Shown: piece after piece, positions 37,356 through 62,163 of the stretch
Layout of the letters: each line of letters starts with the position of its first letter
Numbering within the stretch: position 1 is the first letter of the stretch
Source of the DNA: a bacterium
GTDB lineage: Bacteria; Patescibacteriota; Saccharimonadia; Saccharimonadales; JAUPVS01
Reading direction: 5' to 3'
Assembly: GCA_029780855.1 (NCBI GenBank)
Contig: JAKOXV010000013.1
Location: 28,873 to 92,872 of the forward strand
Length of the DNA: 64,000 nt
Made by a program: the position numbers and the translations under genes
The notes under the pieces: model-generated
What the model was told of the DNA's origin: nothing
What the model saw: the letters and a program-made list of their open reading frames with translations, nothing else
Database searches by the model: none

Positions 37356-38216
37356 ATGAAATTAGTCGTACCTGAATCAGCTGTAAAACACCGACTTGAT
37401 GTGTTCGTGACTGAAGAGATTGGATCGGTTAGTCGGGCATTTATCGGAAAATTGTGTGACGACGGCAAGATACTAGTTAATGGATCTTCAGTCAAGAATG
37501 GATACAAGCTCAAAGTGAGGGATATTATAGCAATTGACTACGACTTCGAGCGGTTACAGCAAATACCAACTATTGAATTGCCGATACTATACGAGGATGA
37601 AGATTGTATAGTTTTAAACAAACCAGAAGGAGTGTTAACACACAGCAAGGGGGCATTTAATCCGGAAGGTACGGTAGCCACATTTATAGCGCCTAGAATT
37701 ACCGGTATGGATGGCGATAGAGCCGGAATAGTTCACAGGCTCGATCGACTAACCTCTGGTGTGCTTATTGCTGCTAAGAACCGTGCAGCACTCGCCTGGC
37801 TCCAAAAACAGTTCAGTGTACGAAAGGTAAAAAAGACGTACTTTGCAGTTGTTTCAGGTACCCTTGAGCAAAAGGAAGCTATTATAGACATGCCTATAGA
37901 ACGTAATCCAAAAAATCCAAAAACATTTCGGGTGGGTAGTATGGGTAAGCCGGCAGTTACAAAGTATAAAGTAGCTGCTGAGGATCACAATAAAACTTTA
38001 GTCCAGCTTACGCCTGAAACGGGGCGGACACATCAGTTACGCGTTCATCTAGCGCAACTAGGACACCCTATTGTTGGTGATCCATTTTATGGTGAAGTAG
38101 CAGCCGACCGCATGTATTTGCATGCTGAAAGCTTAGAAATAACCTTACCTTCTAGACAAAGAAAAACGTTTGTTGCGCCTCTACCAGACAGCTTTCGCGC
38201 TATACTTAACTCATGA
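37356..38216 (+). CDS. rluD: RluA-family 23S rRNA pseudouridine synthase (RluD-like) with S4 domain
   Basis: 286 aa with the catalytic motif HRLDRLTSG and an N-terminal S4-like domain. Confidence 0.85.
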   Translation: MKLVVPESAVKHRLDVFVTEEIGSVSRAFIGKLCDDGKILVNGSSVKNGYKLKVRDIIAIDYDFERLQQIPTIELPILYEDEDCIVLNKPEGVLTHSKGAFNPEGTVATFIAPRITGMDGDRAGIVHRLDRLTSGVLIAAKNRAALAWLQKQFSVRKVKKTYFAVVSGTLEQKEAIIDMPIERNPKNPKTFRVGSMGKPAVTKYKVAAEDHNKTLVQLTPETGRTHQLRVHLAQLGHPIVGDPFYGEVAADRMYLHAESLEITLPSRQRKTFVAPLPDSFRAILNS

Positions 38217-39082
38217 ATGGACTACTTCTGCATGAGCGCAGTAAACACGAACTAAGTGAGTTCCTGCTTTACCCAAAACAAAGTATTTTGATTGTAGGCC
38301 CCAAAGGTAGCGGAAAACATTCGGTTGCGAAAGTCTTAGTGGCTACCATATTAGGAATTGAGCAAAACAAAGTACACGAACATCAATCGGTACTGTATAT
38401 TTCTGCCGAAAAATCCACCATATCAATAGATGCTATACGAAGGAGCCAAGAGTTTGTCCGGCTAAAAACAGCAGGAAAGGGAAAGATTAGGCGAATTATA
38501 TTTGTTGATGGAGCGCACCATATGACAAAAGAAGCCCAAAATGCATTTTTAAAGCTATTAGAGGAGCCCCCAGAAGATTGTATGATCGTTATGACTACTG
38601 ATAGTCAGGATGCGCTTCTGGCTACAATCCGCTCGCGCACCAATACGTTGCTCCTAAAGCCTCCCTCCAAAGAAACTTCTAGTAGCTATTTTATGGAAAA
38701 AGGTCACAGTACTGATGAAGTACATAAAGCCTACCTTCTTTCCAGGGGCTACGCAGGACTTATGACGACGATTCTCGAACACACCACTGACGACGCTACG
38801 CTAGCTTCTCTAGAAACAGCAAAACAATTTTTGGTTTCAAAAAAATTCGAGCGTTTAGTGATTGCAGATACGGTTGCTAAAAAAAGTTCCGATTTAACAA
38901 GCTTTTTATGGGGATTGCAACGCATTTGTGATGCTGCGCTTCACCAAGCAATTATTAATAGATCTGATACGCAAATAAGATATTGGATCAAAGCATCGAA
39001 ACTTGCGCTTGATTCGCAAGAAACCCTAAAAGCCAATCCCAACGTTAAGTTGCTGTTAACAGATCTGGCACTTCAGCTGTAG
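38213..39082 (+). CDS. holB: DNA polymerase III delta' subunit
   Basis: 289 aa with an AAA+ clamp-loader fold (VGPKGSGKHS, AFLKLLEEPP, TIRSRT). ATGA overlap with rluD. Confidence 0.8.
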   Translation: MNGLLLHERSKHELSEFLLYPKQSILIVGPKGSGKHSVAKVLVATILGIEQNKVHEHQSVLYISAEKSTISIDAIRRSQEFVRLKTAGKGKIRRIIFVDGAHHMTKEAQNAFLKLLEEPPEDCMIVMTTDSQDALLATIRSRTNTLLLKPPSKETSSSYFMEKGHSTDEVHKAYLLSRGYAGLMTTILEHTTDDATLASLETAKQFLVSKKFERLVIADTVAKKSSDLTSFLWGLQRICDAALHQAIINRSDTQIRYWIKASKLALDSQETLKANPNVKLLLTDLALQL

Positions 39083-39110
39083 GTAAGGCCATGATATACT
39101 TTATCTCACG

Positions 39111-39764
39111 ATGCTTGAACTAGCACTTTTAGCCGGATTTGGCTTCTTAGTATTTCGGAATACAAAATTACGAGATGACGAACTTTCGCCGCTACCTCGT
39201 AAGATTTCTGATAAACTCGGAAAACTCTGGGACATCGCCCACCAAGGAATGCGGGAAAACCGGTTTTTACGCGCTGAAAAAGCACTGCTTACTATACTCA
39301 AGATAGATGAAAAGAATGCCGCTGCATACAATCGCTTAGGTATTCTCTACGCTAAACAAAAAGAGTATAAAGATGCAATCGATTGTTTTGAGATAGCCAG
39401 CAGTATAGAGGCAACCGCTTCAAGTCTGCACAACCTTGGACTTATATACTACGAAACCGAGAACTACCAAAAAGCGGCCCTAGCTTTTGAACAAGCATTA
39501 AAGATGGAAGATTCATTGGCCGCCCGGCACATCGCCTATGCCAAGGTTTTAGAGAAACTTGGTTCCGATAAACTAATGTTCGAACAGCTACATAAAGCAA
39601 TTGAGCTTGAGCCGAACAAAGAATCGTATATGCTACTCCTTAAAGCATACGAGGCTCATGGTATGCAGGCTGAAGCAGACCAGTTGGCAAGTAAGCTCAA
39701 AAAGCTAGTAGTGCCAGCTGGGAGGCCAAAGCGCGTATTGCGGCCGAGGAAAGTAGTTATTTGA
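39111..39764 (+). CDS. Tetratricopeptide-repeat protein with N-terminal TM helix
   Basis: 217 aa with TPR repeats (AAYNRLGILYAKQKEYKDAIDCF, HNLGLIYYETENYQKAALAFEQAL). An extended -10 TGaTATACT at 39092-39100 lies 10 nt upstream. Confidence 0.75.
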   Translation: MLELALLAGFGFLVFRNTKLRDDELSPLPRKISDKLGKLWDIAHQGMRENRFLRAEKALLTILKIDEKNAAAYNRLGILYAKQKEYKDAIDCFEIASSIEATASSLHNLGLIYYETENYQKAALAFEQALKMEDSLAARHIAYAKVLEKLGSDKLMFEQLHKAIELEPNKESYMLLLKAYEAHGMQAEADQLASKLKKLVVPAGRPKRVLRPRKVVI

Positions 39765-40363
39765 TGGTTGAGTCTTTTGAGGACTATATTTCAGAAGACA
39801 TTATCATTTCTGTTTTACCTGGTGGGCGACTACCTGAGCGCAAATCAGAAGGTGCTATAGGTTATGATACATACGTGCGGGCTATAGTAGACCCGTATGA
39901 AATGAATGACCAAGATCCTAGATTGCGCAAAACAATTTTTGATTTCGAAGAAGTTCCAGAGAGCCCGGCATTGCAAGAACATATTGTTCCAGATCCAGAC
40001 GAAGAAAACCTTTGGGCGTATGAACTGCATCCTGCTGAATCGGTTCTAATTGGTATCGGCTTTGCCACTCAGATGGAATTACCTGGGTACTACTGGGTTG
40101 CTCCACGCAGTGGTCTTGCATCTAAACATCGTATTACCCTTGGTAATGCTCCTGGTACGGTAGACGCAGACTATCGAGGTGAGGCTGGTGTGATCGTTAA
40201 GAATGAGTCAAATAAGCCATTTTTAATCCAACGTGAGCTAAGGATTGCCCAAATAGTCTTTGCTAAGGGAGAGATTGTATCAATGAAAGAAGTTCCATTT
40301 GACCAGCTGGGCGAAACTGAACGTTCTGCAGGTGGCTTTGGGTCAACAGGGTTTAAAGACTAG
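39764..40363 (+). CDS. dut: dUTP diphosphatase (trimeric dUTPase family) with ~50-aa insertion
   Basis: Motifs PRSGLASKH, GTVDADYRGE, RIAQIVF and the C-terminal GGFGSTG. I prefer ATG 39764, which overlaps the upstream stop (TGATG). Confidence 0.85.
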   Translation: MVESFEDYISEDIIISVLPGGRLPERKSEGAIGYDTYVRAIVDPYEMNDQDPRLRKTIFDFEEVPESPALQEHIVPDPDEENLWAYELHPAESVLIGIGFATQMELPGYYWVAPRSGLASKHRITLGNAPGTVDADYRGEAGVIVKNESNKPFLIQRELRIAQIVFAKGEIVSMKEVPFDQLGETERSAGGFGSTGFKD

Positions 40364-40822: not shown

Positions 40823-41170
40823 ATGGAGCAAAACAAAAACGACAACCGGTCGTGGTTCCGCGTTCATATAGTTAATGGCGAAATCGCAAAACTGATCGTG
40901 AAAGCATCTGATGAAGATGCAGCGTACTTGAAGGTAGAACAATATTGTGAAGAAAATCCGTGGTTGGGGATAGTTCCTTTTGATGAACCTCTAGCAGCGC
41001 ATCTTGCAGCTAAGCCGCTAGATCCTATTGAGGAAGATTACTACAATACTGTTGGTGAATGGAATGGAACCGTTAAGTTACAAGAAGTTCGATACCATCA
41101 GCCACTGGAGGTACAGAAACCAGTGCAGAGATCAATAGGGCAGTTAGCCCTACAATTCCCCCTATTCTAA
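40823..41170 (+). CDS. Hypothetical 115-aa protein inside the tRNA cluster
   Basis: ORF with SD-like gtgagaa upstream. No recognisable family. Confidence 0.45.
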   Translation: MEQNKNDNRSWFRVHIVNGEIAKLIVKASDEDAAYLKVEQYCEENPWLGIVPFDEPLAAHLAAKPLDPIEEDYYNTVGEWNGTVKLQEVRYHQPLEVQKPVQRSIGQLALQFPLF

Positions 41171-48882: not shown

Positions 48883-48912
48883 CGTGGGAGGCTTACGGCC
48901 GCTAGTACCACG
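48883..48912 (+). promoter_or_regulatory. Stem-loop just 5' of the rplA SD (cgtgg-ga-ggc-ttacg-gcc-gctagta-ccacg)
   Basis: Nested helices read from the sequence. A possible L1 autoregulatory site, but this is inference only. Confidence 0.25.
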
Positions 48913-48925
48913 AAGGAGAATAATC

Positions 48926-49903
48926 ATGGCAGAAGCCAAGAAAGCAAGCAAAAAGGCAAAAAACGAAGCTGAAAAGCTCGAGGAAATCAAGGCTACAGAA
49001 GCTAAGATTGTTGAAAAAGAAGCTGCTGAAATCGTAGAAGAAGCTGCAGTCGAAGAAAGAACGGAAAAAACAACCGCAAAAGCTGGTAAACGAAGTGCAA
49101 AGGCCGTAATGGAAAGCGAAGCAAAGCAGGCCAAAGAAGCACGAAAAGCCGCAAAATCAGAAGAAAAAGCAAAGGAAAAGCCTAAGCAGAAGCAAAATCC
49201 ACCAAAAAGCCAGTTAGAGCGTAAAGGTAAGAACTACCGAAAACTCGCTGAGTTAGTCGACAATACTAAGGAATACACCCTTAACGAAGCACTTGATTTA
49301 GCAACCAAAACCAACCCGGCTAAGTTTGATGCAACCGTTGAACTACATATCAGACTCGGTGTTGATCCGCGACACGCTGATCAAAACATTCGAGATATCG
49401 TTGTGTTGCCAGCAGGAACTGGTAAAACCGTTAAAATTGCAGTGTTTGCTGATGCTGAGGGCGCTGAAGCTGCTAAGAAGGCCGGTGCTGATATTGCCGG
49501 AGAAGAAGCAGTTCTTGCACTGTTAGAGAAAGGAAATCTGGACTTTGACGTACTCATTTCAACACCGCAGCTTATGGCTAAGCTTGGTAAGTACGCTCGA
49601 GTTCTAGGTCCCAAGGGCTTAATGCCTAACCCAAAAAGCGGTACCGTTGCGCCAGATGTAGCTAAGGCAGTCCAAGAAGCAAAGGCCGGACGGGTTGAGT
49701 ATCGTGTTGATAGCACGGGAATTGTACATCTTGGAATCGGAAAAGTAAGTTTTGGTAAGGATAAGCTTTCGCAGAACGCAAAGGCTGTTGTATCTAGCAT
49801 CAAAGCTGCGAAACCATCTTCTCTAAAGGGTGCTTACGTAAAAGGCTTCTTTGTCACCACCTCGATGGGTCCGAGCATCCAGGTCCAAACAAGCGAAATC
49901 TAA
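48926..49903 (+). CDS. rplA: 50S ribosomal protein L1 (uL1) with ~105-aa Lys/Glu/Ala-rich N-terminal extension
   Basis: ATG 48926 (AAGGAG 8 nt upstream). The canonical uL1 core begins near GKNYRKLAELVD. Total length is 325 aa, against ~230 for a typical uL1. Confidence 0.93.
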   Translation: MAEAKKASKKAKNEAEKLEEIKATEAKIVEKEAAEIVEEAAVEERTEKTTAKAGKRSAKAVMESEAKQAKEARKAAKSEEKAKEKPKQKQNPPKSQLERKGKNYRKLAELVDNTKEYTLNEALDLATKTNPAKFDATVELHIRLGVDPRHADQNIRDIVVLPAGTGKTVKIAVFADAEGAEAAKKAGADIAGEEAVLALLEKGNLDFDVLISTPQLMAKLGKYARVLGPKGLMPNPKSGTVAPDVAKAVQEAKAGRVEYRVDSTGIVHLGIGKVSFGKDKLSQNAKAVVSSIKAAKPSSLKGAYVKGFFVTTSMGPSIQVQTSEI

Positions 49904-49904
49904 T

Positions 49905-51581
49905 CTAACGAAGCTTGTTCATTGCTTTGTTGAGCGCATATACAGTCCGCGTAAAGTTCCGTACACCACCTCTATAGACGATGTACCTACTTCGCCACTG
50001 CGGACTGTATTTGGATTTGAACCGGTGTAAGCCACTAAACGAATAGAACCTATCACCATTTGCGTACAGAAATCGAAGTGAGGAATCGATTACCGATCTT
50101 TCTCCACTTTCTTTTTTTAGACCACTTAGTGGGCATAGTCCGAGATTAAAGGTGACATATCCTTTGGCTAAGCAGTGACTCATTGCGGCCATAAGTAGAT
50201 AGTCATTAATATTTCCTAGCGCGTATTTACCGTGTCGTAATAGGTCAAAGTTAGCTTCATGATCTTGGTATGAGGGTATGATATTTACGAAACCCTGTAC
50301 CGTACCGGCCGCATCACGGGCAATTACAAGCGTACTTTGCTGTATGTATTCTTCGGAAAAGTATCCCATCATAAAACCTCGTTCTTGTCTTCCAGGCTTG
50401 TGTAGCCAGTCATCGGATATTTCGTGTAAACGGTTAAGTATAGCTTCCTGGTGTGGCGGCTCAAGTATTTCGGTAGAGTAGTTTTGTTTCTCGAACTTAT
50501 TCCTAATTTGTCGAAAGTACTTTGTGGTTACCGTAGTTTCTGCAAACTCTTTGAGATCTACTACTGCTTCTTCACCAATTTTTTGCATAGACAACGACTC
50601 ATTCGCAACTCTTTCGCACTGTTTTTTTGTTAAATGAACAAATGCCGGTAGCCAATCGTTGGTCATACATAGTTCAGCAAATGAGTTTAATATAGGCGTT
50701 ACAGTGTTTTCCGCGCCGATTGGCGGTGAGACGGCCAGTGCAACCCCTCTTTCTATGTGGAATGGTAAAAAACCCTTACCGTCAGCGCTAAAAATATAGT
50801 TCTTGTCATGAGGCCAAATCGTGAAGAAATCCTCACTATCTTCTGAGTATTTTTGCAGTAGTTTTTCTGTGTGTTCCCTATTAACTGTCTGATCACTAAA
50901 CTTCGCTTTAATTGGCTGAAATAGGGAAACGATAACATATGCCACCGCGGCCGCACTTATGATATTGAGTGAATCGACAAATATTTTAGCTCGCCTGGTA
51001 TACGGTAGAAGTTCGTTGTCGGTTGTAAAATCAAACTGGTCTACCGTATGGTGGAGGGCTTTCGGAATTGTTATATCTTGATGAAAATCATGAGTATCGA
51101 GTAGTACGTATCCGGCCGTACCGTATACCACTATTATACCGATCATCAGGATAGCTACGCGTAGCGATGACCGAAATGACTGAATATCGCTCTTAACAAC
51201 ATACTGCCTACGTACCATGATTAGAAGGAGAACGATAACGGCGGGGATCACAATTGAACGGATGAACGCAAGGGGTTGGTGATGGATTTCAAATGTAAGG
51301 TATTGGTACGTATTTATGCTTAAAACTAAAGAATATAGCGGTATTGTAACTAGCCATGCAGCTTTTTTCCGCCTATTCAGCAACGTTCCGAGATAGACGA
51401 GTGTCATGCCGGCAAGTAACGGCAGACTGACCACAATATCGTTAATGTGAACATCACCATTATGAATAAATAGCTGGTTATATAGAGAGCCGGCAATGAT
51501 TAGTGTGCCGTTTGCAATAACACTATAAGAGATAACCTTGAGCCAAATATATTGTGAGTATTTTTTCATGCTACTGCTCAT
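49905..51581 (-). CDS. MprF-like membrane protein with C-terminal aminoacyl-phosphatidylglycerol synthase domain (DUF2156/LPG_synthase_C)
   Basis: 558 aa with ~6 N-terminal TM helices. The C-terminal domain ends ..FSGLHRFKSKYSPQWRSRYIVY, typical of this family. Confidence 0.75.
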   Translation of the reverse strand: MSSSMKKYSQYIWLKVISYSVIANGTLIIAGSLYNQLFIHNGDVHINDIVVSLPLLAGMTLVYLGTLLNRRKKAAWLVTIPLYSLVLSINTYQYLTFEIHHQPLAFIRSIVIPAVIVLLLIMVRRQYVVKSDIQSFRSSLRVAILMIGIIVVYGTAGYVLLDTHDFHQDITIPKALHHTVDQFDFTTDNELLPYTRRAKIFVDSLNIISAAAVAYVIVSLFQPIKAKFSDQTVNREHTEKLLQKYSEDSEDFFTIWPHDKNYIFSADGKGFLPFHIERGVALAVSPPIGAENTVTPILNSFAELCMTNDWLPAFVHLTKKQCERVANESLSMQKIGEEAVVDLKEFAETTVTTKYFRQIRNKFEKQNYSTEILEPPHQEAILNRLHEISDDWLHKPGRQERGFMMGYFSEEYIQQSTLVIARDAAGTVQGFVNIIPSYQDHEANFDLLRHGKYALGNINDYLLMAAMSHCLAKGYVTFNLGLCPLSGLKKESGERSVIDSSLRFLYANGDRFYSFSGLHRFKSKYSPQWRSRYIVYRGGVRNFTRTVYALNKAMNKLR

Positions 51582-51721
51582 AGTTTATACGGTTTTTGAT
51601 CTTGTGGTGCATTAAAACCAAAACATAAGAGTAAAACATCAGTTTGATAATTCTACAACAACTTAGTAAACCATAGCTATTGCGCCATACTATTACAGAA
51701 TCGTACAATATTTTGAAAGGA

Positions 51722-52447
51722 ATGGAGGAGTACGTGGGGGTTTATAGTAACGTTCAAATTAGAGAGGCTGTAGCAGATGGACATATTGTCTGCACGCCAT
51801 TTGATCCAAGACACGTGGCTCACGCGAGCCTAGATGTAACACTCGGCTACTATTACTACCGTACCGGCCAGGCACATAAGGGCTACGTATATAACCCATT
51901 CGATAAAAAAGATGTACAGAGATACTTTGGTGACGTCCATCAGGCGGTGATTCACCAGGATTGGTGTAACGCCAACGGTGTGAAGCTACTCGAGGGCATA
52001 CCGGCTGACCACCCAGTTATTCCCCTTCGTCCCGGTGAACGCATTCTTGCCCACACTCACGAATTCTTTGGTATTAGGCCACCGGGCGCCTGCGAGGTTA
52101 AAAGCCGTTCAAGCTGGGGACGGAATGGTGTAGCGGTGTGTTTTGATGCAGGCTGGATTGATCCCGGCTATATTAACCGATTAACTTTAGAAATCTATAA
52201 CCTTAACCAGCACGAAACCGTCTTGCTTCCAGTAGGTGAGCGAATAGCACAGATAGTGTTCCACAGTACTGGAGAAGTTGAAGGAGACTATGGCGAAGGA
52301 CGAGATAACGGATTCAGCGGAAAATATCAACGCGGCACTAATCTTGATGAATTGATTAGAAACTGGTCTCCAGATCAGATGCTGCCGCGTGCTTATAAAG
52401 ATACTCGCAAGCTGCCGGAGAATATAACGGGTTTAAAAGCGCGATGA
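51722..52447 (+). CDS. dcd: dCTP deaminase family protein (long form)
   Basis: ATG 51722 (gaaagga upstream); the track start TTG 51680 is possible. Motifs KSRSSWGRNGV, WIDPGYINRLTLEIYN, RIAQIVF, FSGKYQ. Confidence 0.85.
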   Translation: MEEYVGVYSNVQIREAVADGHIVCTPFDPRHVAHASLDVTLGYYYYRTGQAHKGYVYNPFDKKDVQRYFGDVHQAVIHQDWCNANGVKLLEGIPADHPVIPLRPGERILAHTHEFFGIRPPGACEVKSRSSWGRNGVAVCFDAGWIDPGYINRLTLEIYNLNQHETVLLPVGERIAQIVFHSTGEVEGDYGEGRDNGFSGKYQRGTNLDELIRNWSPDQMLPRAYKDTRKLPENITGLKAR

Positions 52448-54795
52448 CTACTACGCATGAGAACCCTGGTGTATATATCGTTATCGAGGGCACAGATGGA
52501 TCCGGCAAAGGTACACAGTTTAAACTTCTAGCGGATAGGCTAGCTAATGAAGGATATGATGTTGCAGTGTTCGATTTTCCGCAGTATGATCAGCCATCAA
52601 GCTACTTTGTTAAAGAGTACTTAAATGGTAACTACGGAACAGGAGAGGAAGTTGGGCCATACACTGCTTCACTGTTTTTTGCACTTGACCGGTATCAAGC
52701 TGCTCCTGCAATTCGGCAAGCCGTAAATGACGGTAAGATTGTTCTTGCAAATAGGTTTGTTGGCTCAAGTATGGCGCATCAAGGAACGAAGTTTCATCAT
52801 TCAGAAGAGCGCCGCGGATTTTACATTTGGCTGGATAATTTAGAGTTTCAGATGCTCGGTATTCCAAGGCCAGATAAAAGCTACGTCTTAAAGGTACCTG
52901 CAGAAATTGCACAAAAATTAGTTGATAAAAAGGAAAAACGATCTTACACCGATAAAAAACGAGATATTCATGAAGCAGATCTTACCCACATGCGTCGATC
53001 GGTTGAGATCTATGATGAAATGTGTTCGTTATTTCCAAAAGATTTTAAAGCAATTAACTGCGTTTCAAACGGTCAATTGCTTAGCATAGAAGCGGTAGAA
53101 GAGCTACTTTGGAAGGAAATCTCTACGTTATTACCACGCAAACAACCTAAGAAACAGGGGAGTGTTCACATGGAAAAAATACCAACTAACCCGTACATCA
53201 CACAACAAGGTGAAGGATGGGAAATCACAGAGACCGGTCGGGAATTTTTGGAGCAAGCCGTAACCGATACAGAAGGAAATGTATATTCATTCACTGGCGA
53301 AAAGATAGGGCCTTTGATGGTAGCCGCCGCTATGGCACGGTTGAGCCGACGAGGTGACGATATGCGCGTAACTATTCTTGATGAGTTTGCAACAGACGAA
53401 AAAGAGGGCAAAGATGAGCAGCTGATACACCGTGTTGTTTCGGCATACGGTGATGACTCAGTACAGCAGCTAGTGGGCAATCACGTCGTTGTAGAAGGAG
53501 CAAGCAACCTTCTTACTAAGCAGCTTGAGTGGGGTCGATTAGCCGCCTATCTTGAACAATCTACCCGGTACATATACTTTGACCAGAAAGACGAAACTGG
53601 TAAATACAAGTACTTCACGCCTGAAAACTTTGATTCTGAAACAACACAATCGTTTAACGAAGCTATGGATCGTATATTTGGGCTGTATTCGGGCATGGTT
53701 CGTAGTCTTACCGAGTACATTCGGCAAAACGATTCTACACCACAAGAAGAGCGGGATGGCGCTTGGAAGGGTGCTACAAGAGCACAAGCTTGTGATGCGA
53801 TACGACCGGTATTACCAGTCTCTACCAAATCTACTGTGGGAATATTTGCAAGTGGGCAAGCGCTTGAATCTATGATTATGCGCCTAATGTCCAGCGACAG
53901 CGAAGAAGCCCGGACGACCGGAGAGAAAATACTACAGGAATCTCGTAAAGTAATACCAGCGTTCCTTGAAAGAGCAGATAAACCCGATCGCGGTGGTGCT
54001 ACGATGGCCTATCTTGCCAACACTCGTCAAAATGTTGCAGAGCTTTCGCAAACACACCTGCCAGAAACGTATAGCGCTGAAACAGAACCAGTAACACTGG
54101 TCCACCACTGGCCAAATAATGAACTGGATTTAGTGCCGCACATGTTGTATGAATCTAGTAACCTTTCAATTAAAGAAATAGCCCAAGAGGTGAGTACATG
54201 GCCAATAGAACGCAAAATGGAAGTTTTTGATGCGTACATCGGCGAACGATTGAACCGCCGTCACCGCCCTGGCCGAGCCCTTGAGCAAGCACACTATACA
54301 TGGGATCTAGTGTGTGATTACGGCATATTCCGTGACCTTCAGCGTCACCGCATGGTTGATGATTTAGAGTGGCAGGCACTTAGTCCGCGTTACGGTTACG
54401 AGGTTCCTGAAATCGTAGAAGAGGCCGGATTAACCGAACAGTTTGAAGCCTGTTTTGATTTGTCTGCTGAACTGTATAGCTACCTGCAGTCAAGAGGGTA
54501 TACCTATGAAGCTCAGTATGCCACACTACTTGGACATAAAATGCGCTGGACTGTCACCTATAACGCCCGCGAAGCATTTCACCTACACGAACTTCGTACC
54601 TCACCTCAAGGGCATCCTGGTTACCGCAAGCTGGTACAACAGATGCATGAGAGGCTAGCAGAAGTTCACCCTACCATCGCTAATGCCATGATTTTTGTTA
54701 ATAAGGGAGAAGATCCAGAACTTACCCGCTTAGCAGCAGAGCGATATACCCAATTTAAATTGGAACAGATAGAGCAACAGGAAACGCCCAATTAG
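52444..54795 (+). CDS. Fusion protein: thymidylate kinase (N-terminal ~230 aa) + tandem flavin-dependent thymidylate synthase ThyX domains
   Basis: The Tmk P-loop is IVIEGTDGSGKGTQ. The first ThyX-like repeat is degenerate (EWGRLAAYLEQSTRY). The second carries the signature (FRDLQRHRMVDDLEWQALSPRY; YNAREAFHLHELRTSPQGH). ATGA overlap with dcd. Confidence 0.85.
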   Translation: MTTTHENPGVYIVIEGTDGSGKGTQFKLLADRLANEGYDVAVFDFPQYDQPSSYFVKEYLNGNYGTGEEVGPYTASLFFALDRYQAAPAIRQAVNDGKIVLANRFVGSSMAHQGTKFHHSEERRGFYIWLDNLEFQMLGIPRPDKSYVLKVPAEIAQKLVDKKEKRSYTDKKRDIHEADLTHMRRSVEIYDEMCSLFPKDFKAINCVSNGQLLSIEAVEELLWKEISTLLPRKQPKKQGSVHMEKIPTNPYITQQGEGWEITETGREFLEQAVTDTEGNVYSFTGEKIGPLMVAAAMARLSRRGDDMRVTILDEFATDEKEGKDEQLIHRVVSAYGDDSVQQLVGNHVVVEGASNLLTKQLEWGRLAAYLEQSTRYIYFDQKDETGKYKYFTPENFDSETTQSFNEAMDRIFGLYSGMVRSLTEYIRQNDSTPQEERDGAWKGATRAQACDAIRPVLPVSTKSTVGIFASGQALESMIMRLMSSDSEEARTTGEKILQESRKVIPAFLERADKPDRGGATMAYLANTRQNVAELSQTHLPETYSAETEPVTLVHHWPNNELDLVPHMLYESSNLSIKEIAQEVSTWPIERKMEVFDAYIGERLNRRHRPGRALEQAHYTWDLVCDYGIFRDLQRHRMVDDLEWQALSPRYGYEVPEIVEEAGLTEQFEACFDLSAELYSYLQSRGYTYEAQYATLLGHKMRWTVTYNAREAFHLHELRTSPQGHPGYRKLVQQMHERLAEVHPTIANAMIFVNKGEDPELTRLAAERYTQFKLEQIEQQETPN

Positions 54796-54827
54796 GTGAG
54801 AGCTGAAACAAACGGACTATAATCTCG

Positions 54828-55247
54828 CTATGTCGAAGTTTTTCTATAACAATCCAGTAGGTCGAGGAGTGTAAGCGTAAAAGCTCGAGGAGCTCTAGAT
54901 ATCTGTTGTAGCTTTAGCCGGTCAGCCACTTCGTCTGTTAAGTAGGCGTTGAAGCGTTCTTGAATATCCTCCATGCATTCAATTGAAGACCCTAACAAAA
55001 GTTCCGCCTCTACTTTGAGTATCCGGCTAGCATTGTTGTTGGCACTGTGCATATTAGACGGAGATTCAAAATGCACCCTCTGTAGAGCATTTAAGTATGT
55101 AGTTGCAGTATGAGAATATGACTGTTCCGAACTTACTGGATTATGAAGTTCTTCTTTGAAAACTTCTCTTGCCATAGCTAACTCAATCCCAGCCATCTCC
55201 TGGGTATCCTTACCGAATTGACTTTCTAGATCCGTTAATACGCTCAT
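54828..55247 (-). CDS. Hypothetical 139-aa helical protein
   Basis: I chose ATG 55247 because AGGAG lies 5 nt upstream; the track start at 55370 has no SD. No recognisable family. Confidence 0.45.
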   Translation of the reverse strand: MSVLTDLESQFGKDTQEMAGIELAMAREVFKEELHNPVSSEQSYSHTATTYLNALQRVHFESPSNMHSANNNASRILKVEAELLLGSSIECMEDIQERFNAYLTDEVADRLKLQQISRAPRAFTLTLLDLLDCYRKTST

Positions 55248-55476
55248 TGCGTCTCCTAGTAAAAAACCGGCCTCTTTTCGGGAGTCCGGTTTTGATTTCC
55301 AAATTCTGTTTCGCAAAACGAACTCCAAACAATTTACGCCATAATGAGCACGAGGCCGTACTGGCGGCATACATGCTTGGCGAAAACTATTTGGATACTT
55401 GTTGCTTTCACGTAAATCAATGTATACCTACGGTAAACCCTTGTCAACTTTAAAAAAAGGAGTACGCTATGTTCAT

Positions 55477-55557
55477 ATGAAACGTTTTAACCGTGTAAGC
55501 ACACTAGGACTCCTCCTCGGCCTTTCTGGGCTGTGCTTTAGCACGGTTGAAGCCTGA
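55477..55557 (+). CDS. Candidate 26-codon Leu-rich leader/small hydrophobic peptide MKRFNRVSTLGLLLGLSGLCFSTVEA, coupled to a 3-codon mini-ORF (55469-55480)
   Basis: Not in the ORF track. SD AAGGAG at 55457-55462 serves ATG 55469 (M-F-I-stop). Its TGA overlaps ATG 55477 (ATATGA). Confidence 0.35.
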   Translation: MKRFNRVSTLGLLLGLSGLCFSTVEA

Positions 55558-55614
55558 GCGTTACACGCATCTCGCACAGCCCAAATATACAGAAATCAGG
55601 CTTCACCGAAGCCT
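55527..55614 (+). promoter_or_regulatory. Mutually exclusive helices around the end of the 26-codon ORF
   Basis: There are three competing helices: 10 bp between 55527-55536 and 55574-55583; 9 bp between gaagcctga (55549-55557) and tcaggcttc (55596-55604); 7 bp between aggcttc (55598-55604) and gaagcct (55608-55614), followed by atttaaatt. Confidence 0.35.
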
Positions 55615-55637
55615 ATTTAAATTATTGGAGAAACGTA

Positions 55638-55889
55638 ATGGTATATTTTGATATTGAAAGAATGGAACCAGTACCATTTGGTCAGGTTGCAGAACAGGTG
55701 TACTTTAACCGTGGGGGCTACTCAGAAGAGGTACGACAAAAAGTGTTTGAACGAGTGGCAAGGGTCGGTTGCGCACTAGGACGTGAAGCTATGATCCGAT
55801 ATGTACACGATGGAGAAGTAGGTGGTCAATTTATGGCCTTTCCCAAAAACCCTCCGGAAGTTCATGATCCAATCGCCATGGGCGTGTAG
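55638..55889 (+). CDS. Hypothetical 83-aa protein
   Basis: SD ggag lies 8 nt upstream. No recognisable family. Confidence 0.45.
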   Translation: MVYFDIERMEPVPFGQVAEQVYFNRGGYSEEVRQKVFERVARVGCALGREAMIRYVHDGEVGGQFMAFPKNPPEVHDPIAMGV

Positions 55890-56028
55890 TAGTTGACAAA
55901 CGCCCAACCGAAGCGCAAGCTGGAAGCATGACTCGAACAGTAATTATCGTTAAGGTAATTATTTCCTCCGCATAGCGAGGTTATTTGGGTCGTTGGAACA
56001 ACAAAACAAGCACACGAACAGTCCTCGC

Positions 56029-56047
56029 AAACAGCGGGGGCTGTTTT
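56029..56047 (+). terminator. Weak terminator-like hairpin (aacagc-gggg-gctgtttt)
   Basis: A 6-bp stem with a short T-run. Confidence 0.3.
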
Positions 56048-56064
56048 AAATATAAGGAGAAAAT

Positions 56065-56250
56065 ATGACAGTGAAACAATTACAGCTTAATTCTATACCA
56101 GAACTGCGAGCTCAAATATCACAAACAGAAGCAGAACAAGATGAAAGTCTAAAAGAATACGTTGCTCAAACAGCTGGCGAACTAGCACTGCGGCAAACAT
56201 CGACGTATCCTGATTTCTCAAAACTATTCTATTTGGGTGAAGGCGCTTAG
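56065..56250 (+). CDS. Hypothetical 61-aa protein
   Basis: A strong SD (aaggag) lies 7 nt upstream. The protein is helical and acidic with no recognisable family. Confidence 0.45.
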   Translation: MTVKQLQLNSIPELRAQISQTEAEQDESLKEYVAQTAGELALRQTSTYPDFSKLFYLGEGA

Positions 56251-56279
56251 TTGACACTAGCTCTATAATCTAGTAAAAT
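56251..56279 (+). promoter_or_regulatory. Putative rplJL promoter (TTGACA-17-TAAAAT)
   Basis: Perfect -35 hexamer at 56251-56256, a 17-nt spacer, and the -10 at 56274-56279. Confidence 0.5.
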
Positions 56280-56362
56280 CTTCTCTGTTACCAAAGACAG
56301 TGACTGGAATGATTCCTTAATTTGTCACCGAGGTGCAAATGAATGTATTTGTATTTTGAACT

Positions 56363-56391
56363 AGTCTTTGGAGAAGTCCGAAGACTTTTTT
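56363..56391 (+). terminator. Intrinsic terminator inside the rplJ 5' leader (L10-leader-type attenuator)
   Basis: A 9-bp stem agtctttgg / ccgaagact (one G-U) with a 6-nt loop and a T5-6 run, located 60 nt before the rplJ ATG. Confidence 0.55.
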
Positions 56392-56451
56392 GATGGTAAC
56401 ACTCCTTTAACAATTAGGTCGATATAATAGTAAGTAAAGGAACCAAACTTT

Positions 56452-56976
56452 ATGGCTTTAACAAAAGATCAGAAGCATGAAGTTGTCGGTGATATTAGCG
56501 AACTCCTCAGCAACTCGCGAATGACTGTTGTGGCCGAATACAAGGGCACGCCAGTCAAAGCAATGCAGGAACTCCGCCGTCAGTCCCGCGAAAACGGAAC
56601 ATCCATAAAAGTTGTCAAAAACCGCTTGGTTATCAAGGCCCTGCAGCAAAACGACACTTTTAAAGATGTTGATGTCAGCGGATTAAACGGTATGCTCTTG
56701 TATGCATTCAACAGTGAAGATGAGGTAGCTCCAGCGCAAGCTCTGGCTACATTCGCCAAAAAGCAACCAACAATTCAGTTTGTTGGAGCATTTTCTTCTG
56801 AAGGCGCATTTTTAAACGCAGACGAAGTAAAATCACTTGCAACCTTGCCAAGCAAGAACCAGCTTATTGCTGGCGTTATTAATACCCTTAACTCACCAGT
56901 ACGTGGTGTGGTAAGTGGCTTAAGTGGTAACCTACACGGCCTATTACAGGCTCTGGAAGCCAAAGCAAACGGATAA
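56452..56976 (+). CDS. rplJ: 50S ribosomal protein L10 (uL10)
   Basis: 174 aa with typical uL10 sequence. Confidence 0.96.
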
Positions 56977-57530: not shown

Positions 57531-58040
57531 ATGGCAGAAATAGCAGACAAACAGATCAAACGCTTACGAGCTTTGATCCAAGAGGCGGAAACTAACTTAG
57601 CGGCAGCGAAAGAGCTGCTTGTTAGTGTTGTTGGTGAAGATACCGCGGCCGTAGCAAGTGTTAAAGAAGAAAACCTCGGTAAAGTCATTGAAGGCGTCTT
57701 TGACGGTCAAAATATGGTTGGTTCAGACGGTAAAACCTATCCCGTACCGGCAAACTATGCTTCTAAGTCAAAACTAGTTCAAGGTGATATTTTAAAGCTT
57801 ACTATTGGTGATGATGGCGCATTTATGTATAAGCAGATCGGGCCAATACCACGCAAACAGCTAGTGGGCGTGCTAGAGCAAAAAGATGGCCACTACTTTG
57901 TTAAAGTGGCCGACCATGAATACCGAGTATTACTGGCAAGTGTTACCTACTTCAAGGCCAAGCCAGGCGACCAAGTAAGCGTTAACGTTCCTGAAGAGGA
58001 AGAAAACGCTGAATGGGCTGCATTAGAAGCAGCGCTCTAA
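57531..58040 (+). CDS. Hypothetical 169-aa protein (coiled-coil N-terminus, beta-rich C-terminal domain)
   Basis: The ORF has a weak SD and no recognisable family. Confidence 0.5.
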   Translation: MAEIADKQIKRLRALIQEAETNLAAAKELLVSVVGEDTAAVASVKEENLGKVIEGVFDGQNMVGSDGKTYPVPANYASKSKLVQGDILKLTIGDDGAFMYKQIGPIPRKQLVGVLEQKDGHYFVKVADHEYRVLLASVTYFKAKPGDQVSVNVPEEEENAEWAALEAAL

Positions 58041-60981: not shown

Positions 60982-62163
60982 ATGAAGCGGAGGATTGATA
61001 AACTCTTTGCCCACATAGGGCAGCAGACCGTTTTTTACGGATTTGTTTTTGCCGGAATGGGTCTGATTCTTTGGTACCACCTTGGGACCTTGACACCTGG
61101 CTTCAGTGCACCAGAACTAATGGCTAGATCAGCCGCCAGTTCAGGTAAAGAAATTGTAGCTAATCCCTTATTTTTACCGCATAAGCTTCTTCAGTACCTC
61201 CTCATAAGCCTTGGCCATACCGGGGCATTCTGGATGAGGTTTGTTTCTACGCTATTTGCTGGACTAATCGTCGTTGCCTTTTATCGTATTCTTAGAACTT
61301 GGTATACCGCTCGGGTTGCACTTTTCAGTTCTTTTCTACTGCTTTCATCTGCCTGGTTTTTGCATTTTGCGCGGCTTGCAACACCGCAGATTCTGCTCGG
61401 TTCTTCGATCGGACTCCTCTGGGCGGGGTTGCGCTTACGGGGCAATGAGCCCCGCCACAGCACCGTACTGCTTAGTTTTGCGATTGTTCTTTACTGTCTC
61501 TATATCCCTGGATTAATCTGGTTTATTGCTCCGCTTATAGTTTGGCGACATAAAATAATTTTTAGAGAGCTCCGGCGCATTCATAAGGGGATGCTTTCAC
61601 TTATGATTCTTGCGTTTTTGTTTTGTATAACGCCTCTGGTTTATTCGTTTACGCAAAATACTCAAATACTGCTTGATTGGCTCTATGTACCGCACACCAT
61701 ACAGCTCAGCACCATTATCTCTAACTCGTGGGGTCTTCCGATATGGTTACTTTTGCGGGCGCCAGTTAATTACGCGTACTGGCTCGGAAGGGTGCCATAC
61801 CTTGATATTTTCAGTGTTGTAATGCTAGCACTTGGTGTGTTTGTGAGTATTCATAACCTTATTCTCGACAGGGTAAGGACAATATTTGGCATGCTCATTA
61901 TTGGAATTGTACTTACTATTCTGAACGGACCACTTGCTCTTATGTTGATTATTCCCATCATCTTTGTCCTTATCGCCAGTGGGATTGCACTTCTATTACA
62001 ACAGTGGTTCACGGTCTTTCCTAAAAATCCACTTGCGAGGACAGTAGGAGTAATTATGGTGCTTTCCGTAGTACTCATAGCAGGCCTTTACAATTTAAAA
62101 GCTTACTTTGTGGCCTGGCCAAACAACATAGAAACTATACAATCCTTCCAAGAAAAAGGATAA
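60982..62163 (+). CDS. Polytopic membrane protein (~11 TM), possibly GT-C/ArnT-PMT-like glycosyltransferase
   Basis: 393 aa, very hydrophobic, resembling GT39/ArnT-type N-terminal regions. The functional assignment is weak. Confidence 0.4.
   Translation: MKRRIDKLFAHIGQQTVFYGFVFAGMGLILWYHLGTLTPGFSAPELMARSAASSGKEIVANPLFLPHKLLQYLLISLGHTGAFWMRFVSTLFAGLIVVAFYRILRTWYTARVALFSSFLLLSSAWFLHFARLATPQILLGSSIGLLWAGLRLRGNEPRHSTVLLSFAIVLYCLYIPGLIWFIAPLIVWRHKIIFRELRRIHKGMLSLMILAFLFCITPLVYSFTQNTQILLDWLYVPHTIQLSTIISNSWGLPIWLLLRAPVNYAYWLGRVPYLDIFSVVMLALGVFVSIHNLILDRVRTIFGMLIIGIVLTILNGPLALMLIIPIIFVLIASGIALLLQQWFTVFPKNPLARTVGVIMVLSVVLIAGLYNLKAYFVAWPNNIETIQSFQEKG

What the first reader, a model, noticed from the sequence alone, without database searches (positions are those of the whole stretch)
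51722..54795. dCTP deaminase translationally coupled to a thymidylate kinase - tandem ThyX fusion protein
**Fusion architecture.** ORF 52444-54795 (783 aa) joins a complete thymidylate kinase to two ThyX (Thy1) repeats. The kinase has P-loop IVIEGTDGSGKGTQ and a lid/DR region, covering aa ~8-230.
- The N-terminal ThyX repeat has lost the signature: EWGRLAAYLEQSTRY replaces RHRxxSxxxxSxRY.
- The C-terminal repeat retains it: QRHRMVDDLEWQALSPRY, plus NAREAFHLHELRTSPQGH.

**Coupling to dcd.** The fusion's ATG overlaps the stop of a long-form dCTP deaminase (ATGA at 52444-52447).

**Pathway.** Together with dut at 39764, the window encodes the route dCTP -> dUTP -> dUMP -> dTMP -> dTDP, with the last two steps on one polypeptide. 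An intramolecular pseudo-dimer of ThyX with one degenerate active-site half, fused to the next pathway enzyme, suggests substrate channelling of dTMP. Double-domain ThyX proteins are known (for example in Chlamydia). I cannot recall a characterised Tmk-ThyX-ThyX fusion.
Basis: partly seen in the sequence, partly recalled or inferred. Interest (0 to 1): 0.55.

Follow-up and report, generated by a model that had tools for sequence, protein, structure and literature searches.

The report
Thymidylate kinase fused to split-function ThyX
A Saccharibacteria gene really does join thymidylate kinase to a duplicated flavin-dependent thymidylate synthase whose two copies have each lost a different half of the active site; the protein is widespread in this group but has not been studied.

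Summary
ORF 52444-54795 encodes 783 aa: a thymidylate kinase (aa 8-230), a variable linker, and two complete Thy1/ThyX domains. Each ThyX domain passes Pfam's cut-off on its own. Its ATG overlaps the stop of a dCTP deaminase gene (ATGA), and a dUTPase gene lies at 39761-40363.

It is not an assembly artefact. The same single-frame protein occurs in 80/80 listed species genomes of Saccharimonadia and in thousands of metagenomic proteins. dcd sits directly upstream in about 75/80 genomes.

- **N repeat:** keeps the dUMP-loop residues (Tm R80, E86, S88, R90, Y91, R147) and lacks R78, H79, R165 and R174.
- **C repeat:** keeps RHR, N163, R165 and R174 and lacks R147.
- This pattern is invariant in 120/120 fused proteins and 120/120 stand-alone tandem relatives.

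Given the published three-subunit ThyX site, I infer a dimer acting as a pseudo-tetramer with two live sites.

In relatives with thyA, DHFR and dCMP deaminase adjacent (3/3 degenerate members examined), the ThyX residues have decayed while the Tmk residues stay intact. This argues that the ThyX part is the working synthase here. Substrate channelling is untested.

Verdict: a new variant of a known kind, of moderate interest.

The parts
51734..52447 (+). dcd, a long-form dCTP deaminase of 237 aa counted from the GTG at 51734. An ATG at 51722 is an alternative start; the mechanical ORF runs from TTG 51680.
   Evidence: Pfam DCD at 115 bits, E 3.8e-33. TIGR02274 at 92.5 bits against a cut-off of 92.8. 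Best solved relatives are dCTP deaminases 4xjc and 2qxx, and the TLE catalytic-Glu segment is present. Homologues align from residue 1 of the GTG form.
52444..52447 (+). ATGA: the start codon of the fusion overlaps the TGA stop of dcd.
   Evidence: Read directly. The same 4-nt overlap occurs in 34 of about 75 related loci, and other short overlaps in 11 more.
52444..54795 (+). Fusion gene tmk-thyX(N)-thyX(C), 783 aa plus stop.
   Evidence: Conserved as one frame in 80/80 listed species genomes.
52465..53133 (+). Thymidylate kinase domain (aa 8-230). It has the P-loop EGTDGSGKGT (aa 15-24, nt 52486-52515), D82-R83-Y84, and the basic LID region aa 162-177.
   Evidence: Pfam PF02223 at 76.7 bits against a cut-off of 27. 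Closest solved relative is M. tuberculosis TMPK (4unn/1g3u, E about 2e-19). K22, D82, R83, R104, R166 and R173 are invariant. AF2 gives a five-strand alpha/beta fold with pLDDT about 80-88 in the core.
53134..53190 (+). Lys/Pro-rich linker of variable length (aa 231-249).
   Evidence: Poorly conserved and length-variable in alignment A1. pLDDT is below 50 at aa 235-246.
53191..54078 (+). N-terminal ThyX repeat (aa 250-545): a small beta-hairpin lead-in (aa about 250-285) followed by the Thy1 core (aa 290-505, nt 53311-53958).
   Evidence: Pfam Thy1 at 67.2 bits on its own. TIGR02170 best stretch is aa 315-509. A profile of the family aligns this repeat to M. tuberculosis ThyX residues 62-227. 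AF2 pLDDT is about 90.
53530..53571 (+). Half-degenerate ThyX motif of the N repeat, WGRLAAYLEQSTRY (aa 363-376). R78 and H79 are lost (now W363 and G364). R80, E86, S88, R90 and Y91 are kept (R365, E371, S373, R375, Y376).
   Evidence: Mapping to T. maritima ThyX. Each of these residues is invariant in 120/120 fused proteins, and in 119-120 of 120 stand-alone tandem proteins apart from the two lost positions (W363 107/120, G364 68/120).
53779..53817 (+). N-repeat helix RAQACDAIRPVLP (aa 446-458), carrying R454, the equivalent of T. maritima R147 and M. tuberculosis R172.
   Evidence: R454 is present in 120/120 proteins of both classes.
54079..54792 (+). C-terminal ThyX repeat (aa 546-783), with the Thy1 core at aa 552-744 (nt 54097-54675).
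   Evidence: Pfam Thy1 at 74.2 bits on its own, covering profile positions 2-191 of 191. hhalign against T. maritima ThyX gives E 1.1e-5. AF2 pLDDT is about 90.
54343..54393 (+). C-repeat motif RHRMVDDLEWQALSPRY (aa 634-650). RHR is intact, and the S-x-R-Y loop follows after a 3-residue insertion.
   Evidence: R634, H635 and R636 are present in 120/120 proteins. R649 is present in 120/120 Tmk-fused proteins but is replaced (mostly K or D) in stand-alone tandem proteins.
54562..54597 (+). C-repeat segment NAREAFHLHELR (aa 707-718). N707, R709 and R718 are the equivalents of T. maritima N163, R165 and R174.
   Evidence: 120/120 in both classes. The R147 position is Q691 in this repeat: 120/120 in fused and 118/120 in stand-alone proteins.
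39761..40363 (+). dut (dUTPase), a separate gene downstream of holB and a TPR-protein gene. It supplies dUMP.
   Evidence: Pfam dUTPase at 70.5 bits, E 1.5e-19.

Best explanation
**What it is.** This is the thymidylate module of a Saccharibacteria (CPR) genome.
- Dcd makes dUTP from dCTP.
- The separately encoded Dut makes dUMP.
- The 783-aa protein makes dTMP with its tandem ThyX part and phosphorylates it to dTDP with its N-terminal Tmk.

**How the ThyX part most likely works.** It acts as a built-in heterodimer.
- The C repeat supplies the flavin-binding and catalytic residues: RHR, N163, R165 and R174 in T. maritima numbering.
- The N repeat supplies the dUMP-binding loop (E86, S88, R90, Y91) and R147.
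- Two chains would therefore assemble into a pseudo-tetramer with two complete active sites and two crippled ones, instead of the four sites of canonical ThyX. A dimer would also suit Tmk, which I recall as normally dimeric.

**Shown.**
- The domain identities and the ThyX fold.
- The reciprocal, invariant pattern of residues.
- The conserved dcd linkage.
- The decay of the ThyX residues where thyA is adjacent.

**Inferred.**
- The dimeric assembly and the two-site stoichiometry.
- The enzymatic activities themselves.

**Speculative.** Any transfer of dTMP from ThyX to Tmk without release.
For: **Domains and fold.**
- Pfam hits for Tmk and for each Thy1 repeat separately.
- The AF2 model of aa 246-783 has pLDDT 90.2 and pTM 0.85.
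- All 50 listed Foldseek PDB hits are ThyX chains, with TM-score 0.63-0.75 on the target and about 225 aligned columns.

**Residue pattern.**
- Residues were mapped onto T. maritima ThyX. That sequence was checked as 100% identical to PDB 1kq4/1o26.
- The reciprocal pattern is invariant, or nearly so at a few positions, in 120 fused and 120 stand-alone tandem proteins.

**Subunit roles from the literature.** Review PMC6514825, section 3.1, assigns the residues of one ThyX active site to three subunits:
- RHR and M. tuberculosis R199 (Tm R174) come from subunit A.
- M. tuberculosis R190 (Tm R165) comes from subunit B.
- S105, R107 and Y108 (Tm S88, R90, Y91) come from subunit C.
The C repeat keeps exactly the A and B roles, and the N repeat keeps the C role.

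**Gene context.**
- dcd lies immediately upstream in about 75/80 related genomes, with a 4-nt overlap in 34.
- One relative (P0084, 1047 aa) fuses Dcd as well.

**Natural experiment.**
- Three of three degenerate relatives examined have thyA, DHFR and dCMP deaminase next to the gene, in the same rplA-rplJ neighbourhood (P0175, P0488, P0140).
- These relatives have lost RHR, R165, R174 and the N-repeat loop. They keep all the Tmk residues.
- thyA and DHFR are absent from the window and from 79/80 full-length loci.
Against: - No activity, cofactor content or oligomeric state was measured. No multimer model or coordinates were available.
- The ThyX part is very far from solved ThyX in sequence. 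Single-sequence phmmer against PDB gives E = 1.2, and a family profile gives E = 0.018.
- The residue mapping rests on modest hhalign probabilities (35% for the N repeat, 82% for the C repeat), supported by the fold match.
- NCBIfam equivalog cut-offs for thyX and tmk are not reached.
- The assignment of Tm R147 to the same subunit as S88 and R90 is from my memory, not from a tool.
- The C repeat keeps its own S/T-P-R-Y loop (R649 in 120/120 fused proteins). A simple 'dead site' model does not explain this.
- One genome (L035) has an intact fusion together with thyA and DHFR.
- Whether the genome lacks another tmk or thyA outside the 64-kb window is unknown.
Confidence: 0.7

Rival explanations
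1. This is a bifunctional enzyme, but the fusion has no kinetic meaning. The two activities are joined only for co-expression, fixed stoichiometry or stability in a streamlined genome, and dTMP diffuses freely between the two sites.
For: - The linker is variable and disordered.
- Closely related CPR bacteria carry the same tandem ThyX without Tmk: 55-59% identity over the tandem region to the 53 stand-alone sequences in alignment A2. The synthase therefore does not need the kinase.
- The ThyX remnant persists on Tmk after its catalytic residues decay. That could simply be structural dependence.
Against: - C-repeat R649 is invariant only in Tmk-fused proteins (120/120, and 95/98 in degenerate ones). 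It is replaced in stand-alone tandem ThyX. This hints at a fusion-specific role.
- Nothing here measures kinetics either way.
Confidence: 0.5
2. The tandem ThyX part is not a dUMP methylase in this organism. It is either a pseudo-enzyme that scaffolds or regulates Tmk, or a flavin enzyme acting on another pyrimidine nucleotide.
For: - It is very divergent from solved ThyX in sequence, and TIGR02170 scores below its cut-off.
- A large set of relatives (98 cluster representatives) carries a ThyX-like domain that clearly cannot be a synthase, yet it is retained on Tmk.
- From memory only: ThyX homologues that methylate UMP exist (PolB of polyoxin biosynthesis).
Against: - In the window-type proteins the full catalytic set is invariant when both repeats are taken together.
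- In the three degenerate members whose loci were read, that set has decayed and thyA, DHFR and dCMP deaminase sit beside the gene.
- The upstream partner is a dCTP deaminase, and a dUTPase is nearby. Together they make exactly the ThyX substrate.
Confidence: 0.07
3. The long ORF is an artefact: a sequencing or assembly error has joined separate tmk and thyX genes.
For: None found.
Against: - A 100% identical protein occurs on an independent record (P0001).
- Single-frame full-length matches occur in 80/80 listed species-level genomes from many studies.
- The search found 7593 related proteins, and the best 120 are all fused.
Confidence: 0.01

Closest known systems
Canonical flavin-dependent thymidylate synthase ThyX (T. 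maritima TM0449, PDB 1o26; M. tuberculosis Rv2754c, PDB 2af6/3gwc)
   Same: - The fold matches: Foldseek probability 1.0 and TM-score 0.63-0.75 on the target.
- The Pfam Thy1 domain is present.
- Equivalents of RHR, S88, R90, Y91, R147, N163, R165 and R174 are all present in the protein taken as a whole.
   Different: - The domain is duplicated in one chain, and the residues are split between the two copies. No single repeat has a full set.
- The motif spacing in the C repeat is RHR-x10-SxR.
- Sequence identity is 17-22%, and single-sequence search of PDB finds nothing significant.
- I predict two active sites per pseudo-tetramer rather than four.
- It is fused to Tmk.
Stand-alone tandem ThyX of CPR/Patescibacteria (for example P0137, 545 aa; records named Patescibacteria, Liptonbacteria, Saccharibacteria)
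   Same: - Same two-repeat module, including the short beta-hairpin lead-in.
- 52-60% identical to window aa 246-783 for the 53 stand-alone sequences in A2.
- Same reciprocal residue pattern, invariant or nearly so in 120 proteins.
   Different: - No Tmk domain.
- The C-repeat R90 equivalent is not conserved (K, D, A or S instead of the invariant R649).
- These proteins are also uncharacterised, as far as the literature searches show.
M. tuberculosis-type thymidylate kinase (TMPKmt, PDB 1g3u/4unn)
   Same: It is the best solved relative of aa 10-194 (E about 2e-19). It shares the P-loop, the DRY motif and a basic LID. NF005923 (PRK07933, dTMP kinase) is the best NCBIfam hit.
   Different: The window protein scores below the NCBIfam equivalog cut-off (127 bits against 193). 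It carries a 550-aa C-terminal extension.
Bifunctional DHFR-TS of protozoa and plants (from general knowledge, not tested here)
   Same: Two enzymes of the thymidylate cycle on one polypeptide that works as a dimer. It is the classic case in which a fusion was proposed to channel an intermediate.
   Different: Unrelated folds (ThyA and DHFR). The partner steps differ (dTMP synthesis plus dihydrofolate reduction). No tandem pseudo-subunit is involved.
Double-length ThyX reported for Chlamydia
   Same: Possibly the same kind of two-domain ThyX.
   Different: This could not be checked. No Chlamydia sequence was reachable with the tools, and the papers read do not describe its domain structure.

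Membership tests
Thymidylate kinase (Pfam PF02223; NCBIfam TIGR00041 / NF005923) | Profile match above the curated cut-off | tested here: met
   Pfam gives 74.1-76.7 bits against a cut-off of 27. The stricter NCBIfam equivalog cut-offs are not reached: 65 bits against 83.25, and 127 against 193.
Thymidylate kinase (Pfam PF02223; NCBIfam TIGR00041 / NF005923) | P-loop GxxGxGK(S/T), DR(Y/H) motif and basic LID residues | tested here: met
   GTDGSGKGT at aa 16-24, D82-R83-Y84, and R166/R173 in the LID. All are invariant in alignment A1 and kept even in the degenerate relatives.
Thymidylate kinase (Pfam PF02223; NCBIfam TIGR00041 / NF005923) | dTMP + ATP -> dTDP activity | not testable with these tools
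   Needs an enzyme assay or tmk complementation.
ThyX / flavin-dependent thymidylate synthase (Pfam PF02511; NCBIfam TIGR02170) | Profile match above the curated cut-off | tested here: met
   Each repeat passes Pfam alone: 67.2 and 74.2 bits against a cut-off of 24.8. The TIGR02170 equivalog scores 66.7 bits against 87.9, so it is not reached.
ThyX / flavin-dependent thymidylate synthase (Pfam PF02511; NCBIfam TIGR02170) | ThyX fold | tested here: met
   AF2 pLDDT 90.2 and pTM 0.85. All 50 listed Foldseek PDB hits are ThyX chains, probability 1.0, TM-score 0.63-0.75 on the target. The tool does not report which repeat was aligned.
ThyX / flavin-dependent thymidylate synthase (Pfam PF02511; NCBIfam TIGR02170) | ThyX motif RHRxxSxxxxSxR within one domain | tested here: not met
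   The N repeat reads WGRxxAxxxxSxR, so R and H are lost. The C repeat reads RHR-x10-SxR, three residues longer. The motif's residues are present only when both repeats are combined.
ThyX / flavin-dependent thymidylate synthase (Pfam PF02511; NCBIfam TIGR02170) | Remaining substrate and flavin residues (Tm R147, N163, R165, R174) | tested here: met
   R454 is in the N repeat. N707, R709 and R718 are in the C repeat. Each is present in 120/120 proteins. No single repeat has all of them.
ThyX / flavin-dependent thymidylate synthase (Pfam PF02511; NCBIfam TIGR02170) | Homotetramer with four equivalent active sites; FAD bound; dUMP -> dTMP activity | not testable with these tools
   No multimer prediction, coordinates or assay were available. 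The residue pattern predicts a dimer of tandem chains with two sites.
dCTP deaminase (Pfam PF22769; NCBIfam TIGR02274) | Profile match and catalytic segment | tested here: met
   Pfam DCD gives 115.2 bits against a cut-off of 27. TIGR02274 gives 92.5 bits against 92.8, just below. SRSSWGR and GWIDPGY...TLE align to dCTP deaminases 4xjc and 2qxx. Whether it is mono- or bifunctional (dUMP-forming) was not resolved.
Tandem ThyX of CPR bacteria (uncurated group defined here) | Two Thy1 repeats with reciprocal loss of active-site residues | tested here: met
   The window protein shares the pattern with 120 fused and 120 stand-alone relatives.

The most novel reading that the evidence does not exclude
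The two 'dead' sites of the pseudo-tetramer may not be inert. Each is formed by the flavin-less N repeat together with the C repeat's T/S-P-R-Y loop. In Tmk-fused proteins these sites may have been turned into a nucleotide-binding site that serves the kinase, for example by holding dTMP for hand-off or by acting as a regulatory site.

This would explain two observations:
- C-repeat R649 is invariant only when Tmk is attached.
- That loop, and the domain around it, survives on Tmk even after thyA has taken over and every synthase residue has decayed.
Probability: 0.15. Interest if true: 0.6.

Novelty: new variant of a known kind. Interest (0 to 1): 0.42.

Why it matters
- **A natural asymmetric ThyX.** ThyX is an antibacterial target, and its active site is built from three identical subunits. 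A natural ThyX in which those roles are separated onto two different domains of one chain would let each residue's role be tested without mixing mutant subunits.
- **A possible rule for CPR metabolism.** Saccharibacteria appear to make thymidylate with a fused Dcd-coupled ThyX-Tmk module. The module decays to a kinase with a dead appendage once a thyA-DHFR-dCMP deaminase set arrives. That is a ready-made marker for reading thymidylate metabolism from CPR genomes.
- **A warning for annotation.** Automatic names such as 'FAD-dependent thymidylate synthase' or 'dTMP kinase' can be wrong for part of this family.
- **Channelling.** If dTMP channelling were shown, this would be a second example alongside DHFR-TS.

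Tried and rejected
- **First structure prediction.** The full-length model built on a shallow 22-sequence alignment (about 70% identity) was poor (pLDDT 64.7, C repeat about 30-40). I did not use it for the ThyX part. Adding 53 stand-alone tandem sequences gave the usable model.
- **Sequence searches against PDB.** Single-sequence phmmer of the ThyX part found no significant ThyX hit (E = 1.2). A family profile gave only E = 0.018.
- **Repeat-versus-repeat comparison.** hhalign of the N repeat against the C repeat is weak (probability 8%). The duplication is therefore inferred from Pfam and from the fold, not from similarity between the repeats.
- **Promoter and terminator scan.** The scan of 51400-55600 gave fewer matches than shuffled sequence and no useful sites.
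- **Literature.** Eight literature searches found nothing on a Tmk-ThyX fusion, on tandem ThyX, or on the domain structure of Chlamydia ThyX.
- **Cluster look-ups.** They gave few organism names for the divergent representatives.
- **Frameshift or assembly artefact.** Considered and rejected.


Full report
**Observation.** The window has a single open frame at 52444-54795 (+) of 783 aa.
- Pfam finds Thymidylate_kin at aa 14-185 (E 1.5e-20) and Thy1 with two matched stretches (E 5.9e-39).
- When the protein is cut in three, each piece stands alone. Aa 1-239 gives Thymidylate_kin at 76.7 bits. Aa 240-545 gives Thy1 at 67.2 bits (aa 290-505, profile 9-190 of 191). Aa 546-783 gives Thy1 at 74.2 bits (aa 552-744, profile 2-191 of 191). 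The cut-offs are 27 and 24.8 bits.
- The quoted motifs are present.
- The ATG of the fusion overlaps the TGA of the upstream gene as ATGA at 52444-52447.
- The upstream gene is a dCTP deaminase (Pfam DCD 115 bits; TIGR02274 92.5 bits against a cut-off of 92.8). Its best solved relatives are dCTP deaminases, and the SRSSWGR and TLE segments are present.
- Homologues start at the GTG at 51734 rather than the ATG at 51722.
- A dUTPase gene lies at 39761-40363.

**Not an artefact, and not rare.**
- A database search returned 7593 relatives. The best 120 are 765-806 aa with both Pfam domains, apart from one of 1047 aa. Many are named Saccharibacteria, and JGI already calls them 'thymidylate kinase/thymidylate synthase ThyX'.
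- In one genome per species, 324 stretches encode a relative. The 80 kept all match in one frame over nearly the whole protein. Nearly all are Saccharibacteria, Saccharimonadales or Patescibacteria bins. Three hits carry other taxon labels (Nevskiaceae and Limnocylindria bins; a Dormibacteraeota-labelled protein); these could be mis-binned, which I did not check.
- dcd lies directly upstream in about 75 of 80 loci. The 4-nt overlap recurs in 34 loci, and other short overlaps in 11 more.
- One relative, P0084 (1047 aa), has Dcd fused in front as well.
- An exhaustive profile-free search gave 1259 clusters (at 50% identity) at E <= 1e-30.
- Among the best 150, three architectures appear: Tmk plus two ThyX repeats (about 700-800 aa); stand-alone tandem ThyX (525-560 aa); and Tmk plus a shortened, divergent ThyX-like region (about 510-690 aa).
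- The stand-alone tandem form occurs in records named Patescibacteria, Liptonbacteria and Saccharibacteria.

**Anatomy.**
- *Tmk.* Aa 8-230 has the P-loop GTDGSGKGT, D82-R83-Y84 and a basic LID. All are invariant in the family. It is closest to M. tuberculosis TMPK (E about 2e-19).
- *Linker and lead-in.* A variable Lys/Pro-rich linker (aa 231-249) follows. A short beta-hairpin (aa about 250-285) leads into the N repeat and is also present in the stand-alone proteins.
- *Distance from solved ThyX.* The tandem ThyX region is very far from solved ThyX in sequence: phmmer gives E = 1.2 and a family profile gives E = 0.018 to M. tuberculosis ThyX.
- *Model and fold.* A model built on 74 sequences is confident (pLDDT 90.2, pTM 0.85). 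All 50 listed Foldseek PDB hits are ThyX chains (probability 1.0, TM-score 0.63-0.75 on the target, about 225 columns, 17-22% identity).
- *Repeated topology.* The same order of strands and helices occurs twice in the model.

**Reciprocal degeneration.** I mapped both repeats onto T. maritima ThyX. I recalled that sequence from memory and then confirmed it as 100% identical to PDB 1kq4/1o26. The mapping used hhalign and agrees with the HMMER alignment to M. tuberculosis ThyX.

| Repeat | Keeps (Tm numbering = window residue) | Lacks |
|---|---|---|
| N | R80 = R365, E86 = E371, S88 = S373, R90 = R375, Y91 = Y376, R147 = R454 | R78 (W363), H79 (G364), N163 (S470), R165 (Q472), R174 (M482 here; variable R/L/Q/M across the family) |
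| C | E58 = E614, R74 = R630, R78-H79-R80 = R634-H635-R636, N163 = N707, R165 = R709, R174 = R718 | R147 (Q691), Q75 (D631) |

- A census of 120 fused and 120 stand-alone tandem proteins shows this pattern in 120/120 of the fused class and in 118-120 of 120 of the stand-alone class at every kept position.
- The repeats are therefore not 'one good, one decayed'. Each is under strict selection for a different half of the catalytic equipment.

**How it most likely works.**
- A review of ThyX structures describes each active site as built from three subunits (PMC6514825, section 3.1). Subunit A gives RHR and M. tuberculosis R199 (Tm R174). Subunit B gives S71 and R190 (Tm R165). Subunit C gives S105, R107 and Y108 (Tm S88, R90, Y91).
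- The C repeat keeps exactly the A and B roles, and the N repeat keeps the C role.
- From memory, R147 belongs with the C role.
- I therefore infer that two chains assemble as a pseudo-tetramer. The two C repeats would pair around two FAD molecules, and each N repeat would close one site with its dUMP loop. That gives two complete sites. The other two positions would lack flavin-binding residues.
- This assembly is inferred. No multimer model or coordinates were available.
- Tmk would then convert dTMP to dTDP. Whether dTMP is handed over directly is unknown.

**Evidence that the ThyX part is the working synthase.**
- The 98 'short' representatives have lost RHR, R165 and R174 and most of the N repeat. 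They keep every Tmk residue and the C-repeat T/S-P-R loop.
- For the three such proteins whose loci could be read (P0175, P0488, P0140), thyA (PF00303), DHFR (PF00186) and a dCMP deaminase (PF00383) lie next to the gene. All three genes sit just upstream of rplJ (rplA is also seen in L081), and no dcd is present.
- By contrast, thyA and DHFR are absent from the window and from 79 of 80 full-length loci.
- The exception is L035. It has both an intact fusion and thyA plus DHFR, and it is one of the few loci without dcd upstream. It may be a recent acquisition.
- This pattern is what one expects if ThyX is essential until thyA arrives.

**An unexplained point.** The C repeat's own loop (S/T647-P648-R649-Y650) would sit in the crippled sites. 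Yet R649 is invariant in all 120 fused proteins and in 95 of 98 degenerate ones, while it is replaced (K, D, A or S) in stand-alone tandem ThyX. Its conservation therefore follows the presence of Tmk, not synthase activity. This is the basis of the more novel reading given separately.

**Comparison and novelty.**
- The parts are known families: Tmk, ThyX and Dcd.
- Three things are not described in any paper I could find: the fusion itself, the reciprocal split of the ThyX active site between two repeats, and the decay of the synthase part after thyA acquisition.
- I rate it a new variant of a known kind. It is of moderate interest: it is common in databases and its overall function is predictable, but it offers a natural asymmetric ThyX and a clear evolutionary pattern.

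**Limits.**
- There are no activity data.
- The residue mapping depends on distant alignments supported by the fold.
- The rest of the genome outside the 64-kb window was not available, so a second tmk or a thyA elsewhere cannot be excluded.
- The promoter and terminator scan was uninformative.

Noticed in passing
L081:8001-9659, L082:8001-10079, L084:2203-4164: A large set of relatives (98 cluster representatives, 510-690 aa) is Tmk fused to a ThyX-like region that has lost RHR, R165 and R174 and most of the N repeat. They keep all the Tmk residues and the T-P-R-Y loop. In 3/3 loci read, thyA, DHFR and dCMP deaminase lie beside the gene and dcd is absent. Source names for these proteins vary: NCBI uses 'FAD-dependent thymidylate synthase' for intact fused relatives, while one degenerate relative (P0450) is named only 'dTMP kinase'.
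   Followed up: partly
L035:3500-8334: One full-length relative (P0479, 787 aa) keeps every ThyX residue. It nevertheless has thyA and DHFR immediately upstream and no dcd. It may be an intermediate stage of pathway replacement.
   Followed up: partly
P0084 (1047 aa, on a 406,725-base contig): A triple fusion, Dcd-Tmk-ThyX-ThyX, with a linker of about 25 residues between Dcd and Tmk. It is a single cluster. It could be a true fusion, or an indel at the ATGA overlap.
   Followed up: no
window 54382-54390 (aa 647-649): C-repeat R649 (Tm R90 equivalent) is invariant in Tmk-fused proteins (120/120, and 95/98 of degenerate ones). It is replaced by K, D, A or S in stand-alone tandem ThyX. Its conservation follows the kinase fusion rather than synthase activity.
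   Followed up: partly
window 48884-56976: The block sits between rplA (48884-49903) and rplJ (56452-56976), which are usually adjacent. It comprises the dcd and fusion genes, an MprF-like lysyl-phosphatidylglycerol synthase gene (49905-51581, minus strand) and an unassigned 180-aa ORF (54828-55370, minus strand). The thyA-type loci of relatives occupy the same gap (L081).
   Followed up: partly
window 48884-49903: The L1 ORF is 339 aa, with the Ribosomal_L1 domain only at aa 142-330. In L081 the called L1 gene is 302 aa. This is either an N-terminal extension of L1 in this lineage or an over-long mechanical ORF (GTG start).
   Followed up: no
window 38213-40363: holB (DNA polymerase III delta') at 38213-39082 is followed by a TPR protein and then dut. 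From memory, tmk sits next to holB in many bacteria, but no tmk is there in this window. This is consistent with the only Tmk seen in the window being the fused one.
   Followed up: no
window 51734-52447: The dCTP deaminase has an insertion of about 45 residues (aa about 45-90) and a C-terminal tail of about 40 residues compared with solved enzymes. Both are conserved across Saccharimonadia (full-length tblastn matches). A 2023 paper places a eukaryotic and giant-virus Dcd2 clade inside CPR Dcd sequences (PMC10733785). Whether this gene belongs to that clade was not tested.
   Followed up: no
window 54828-55370 (-), 57531-58040 (+), 60982-62163 (+), 40823-41170 (+): Four ORFs of 180, 169, 393 and 115 aa have no Pfam match at the thresholds used (E <= 0.1 for the first, E <= 0.001 for the other three).
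   Followed up: no
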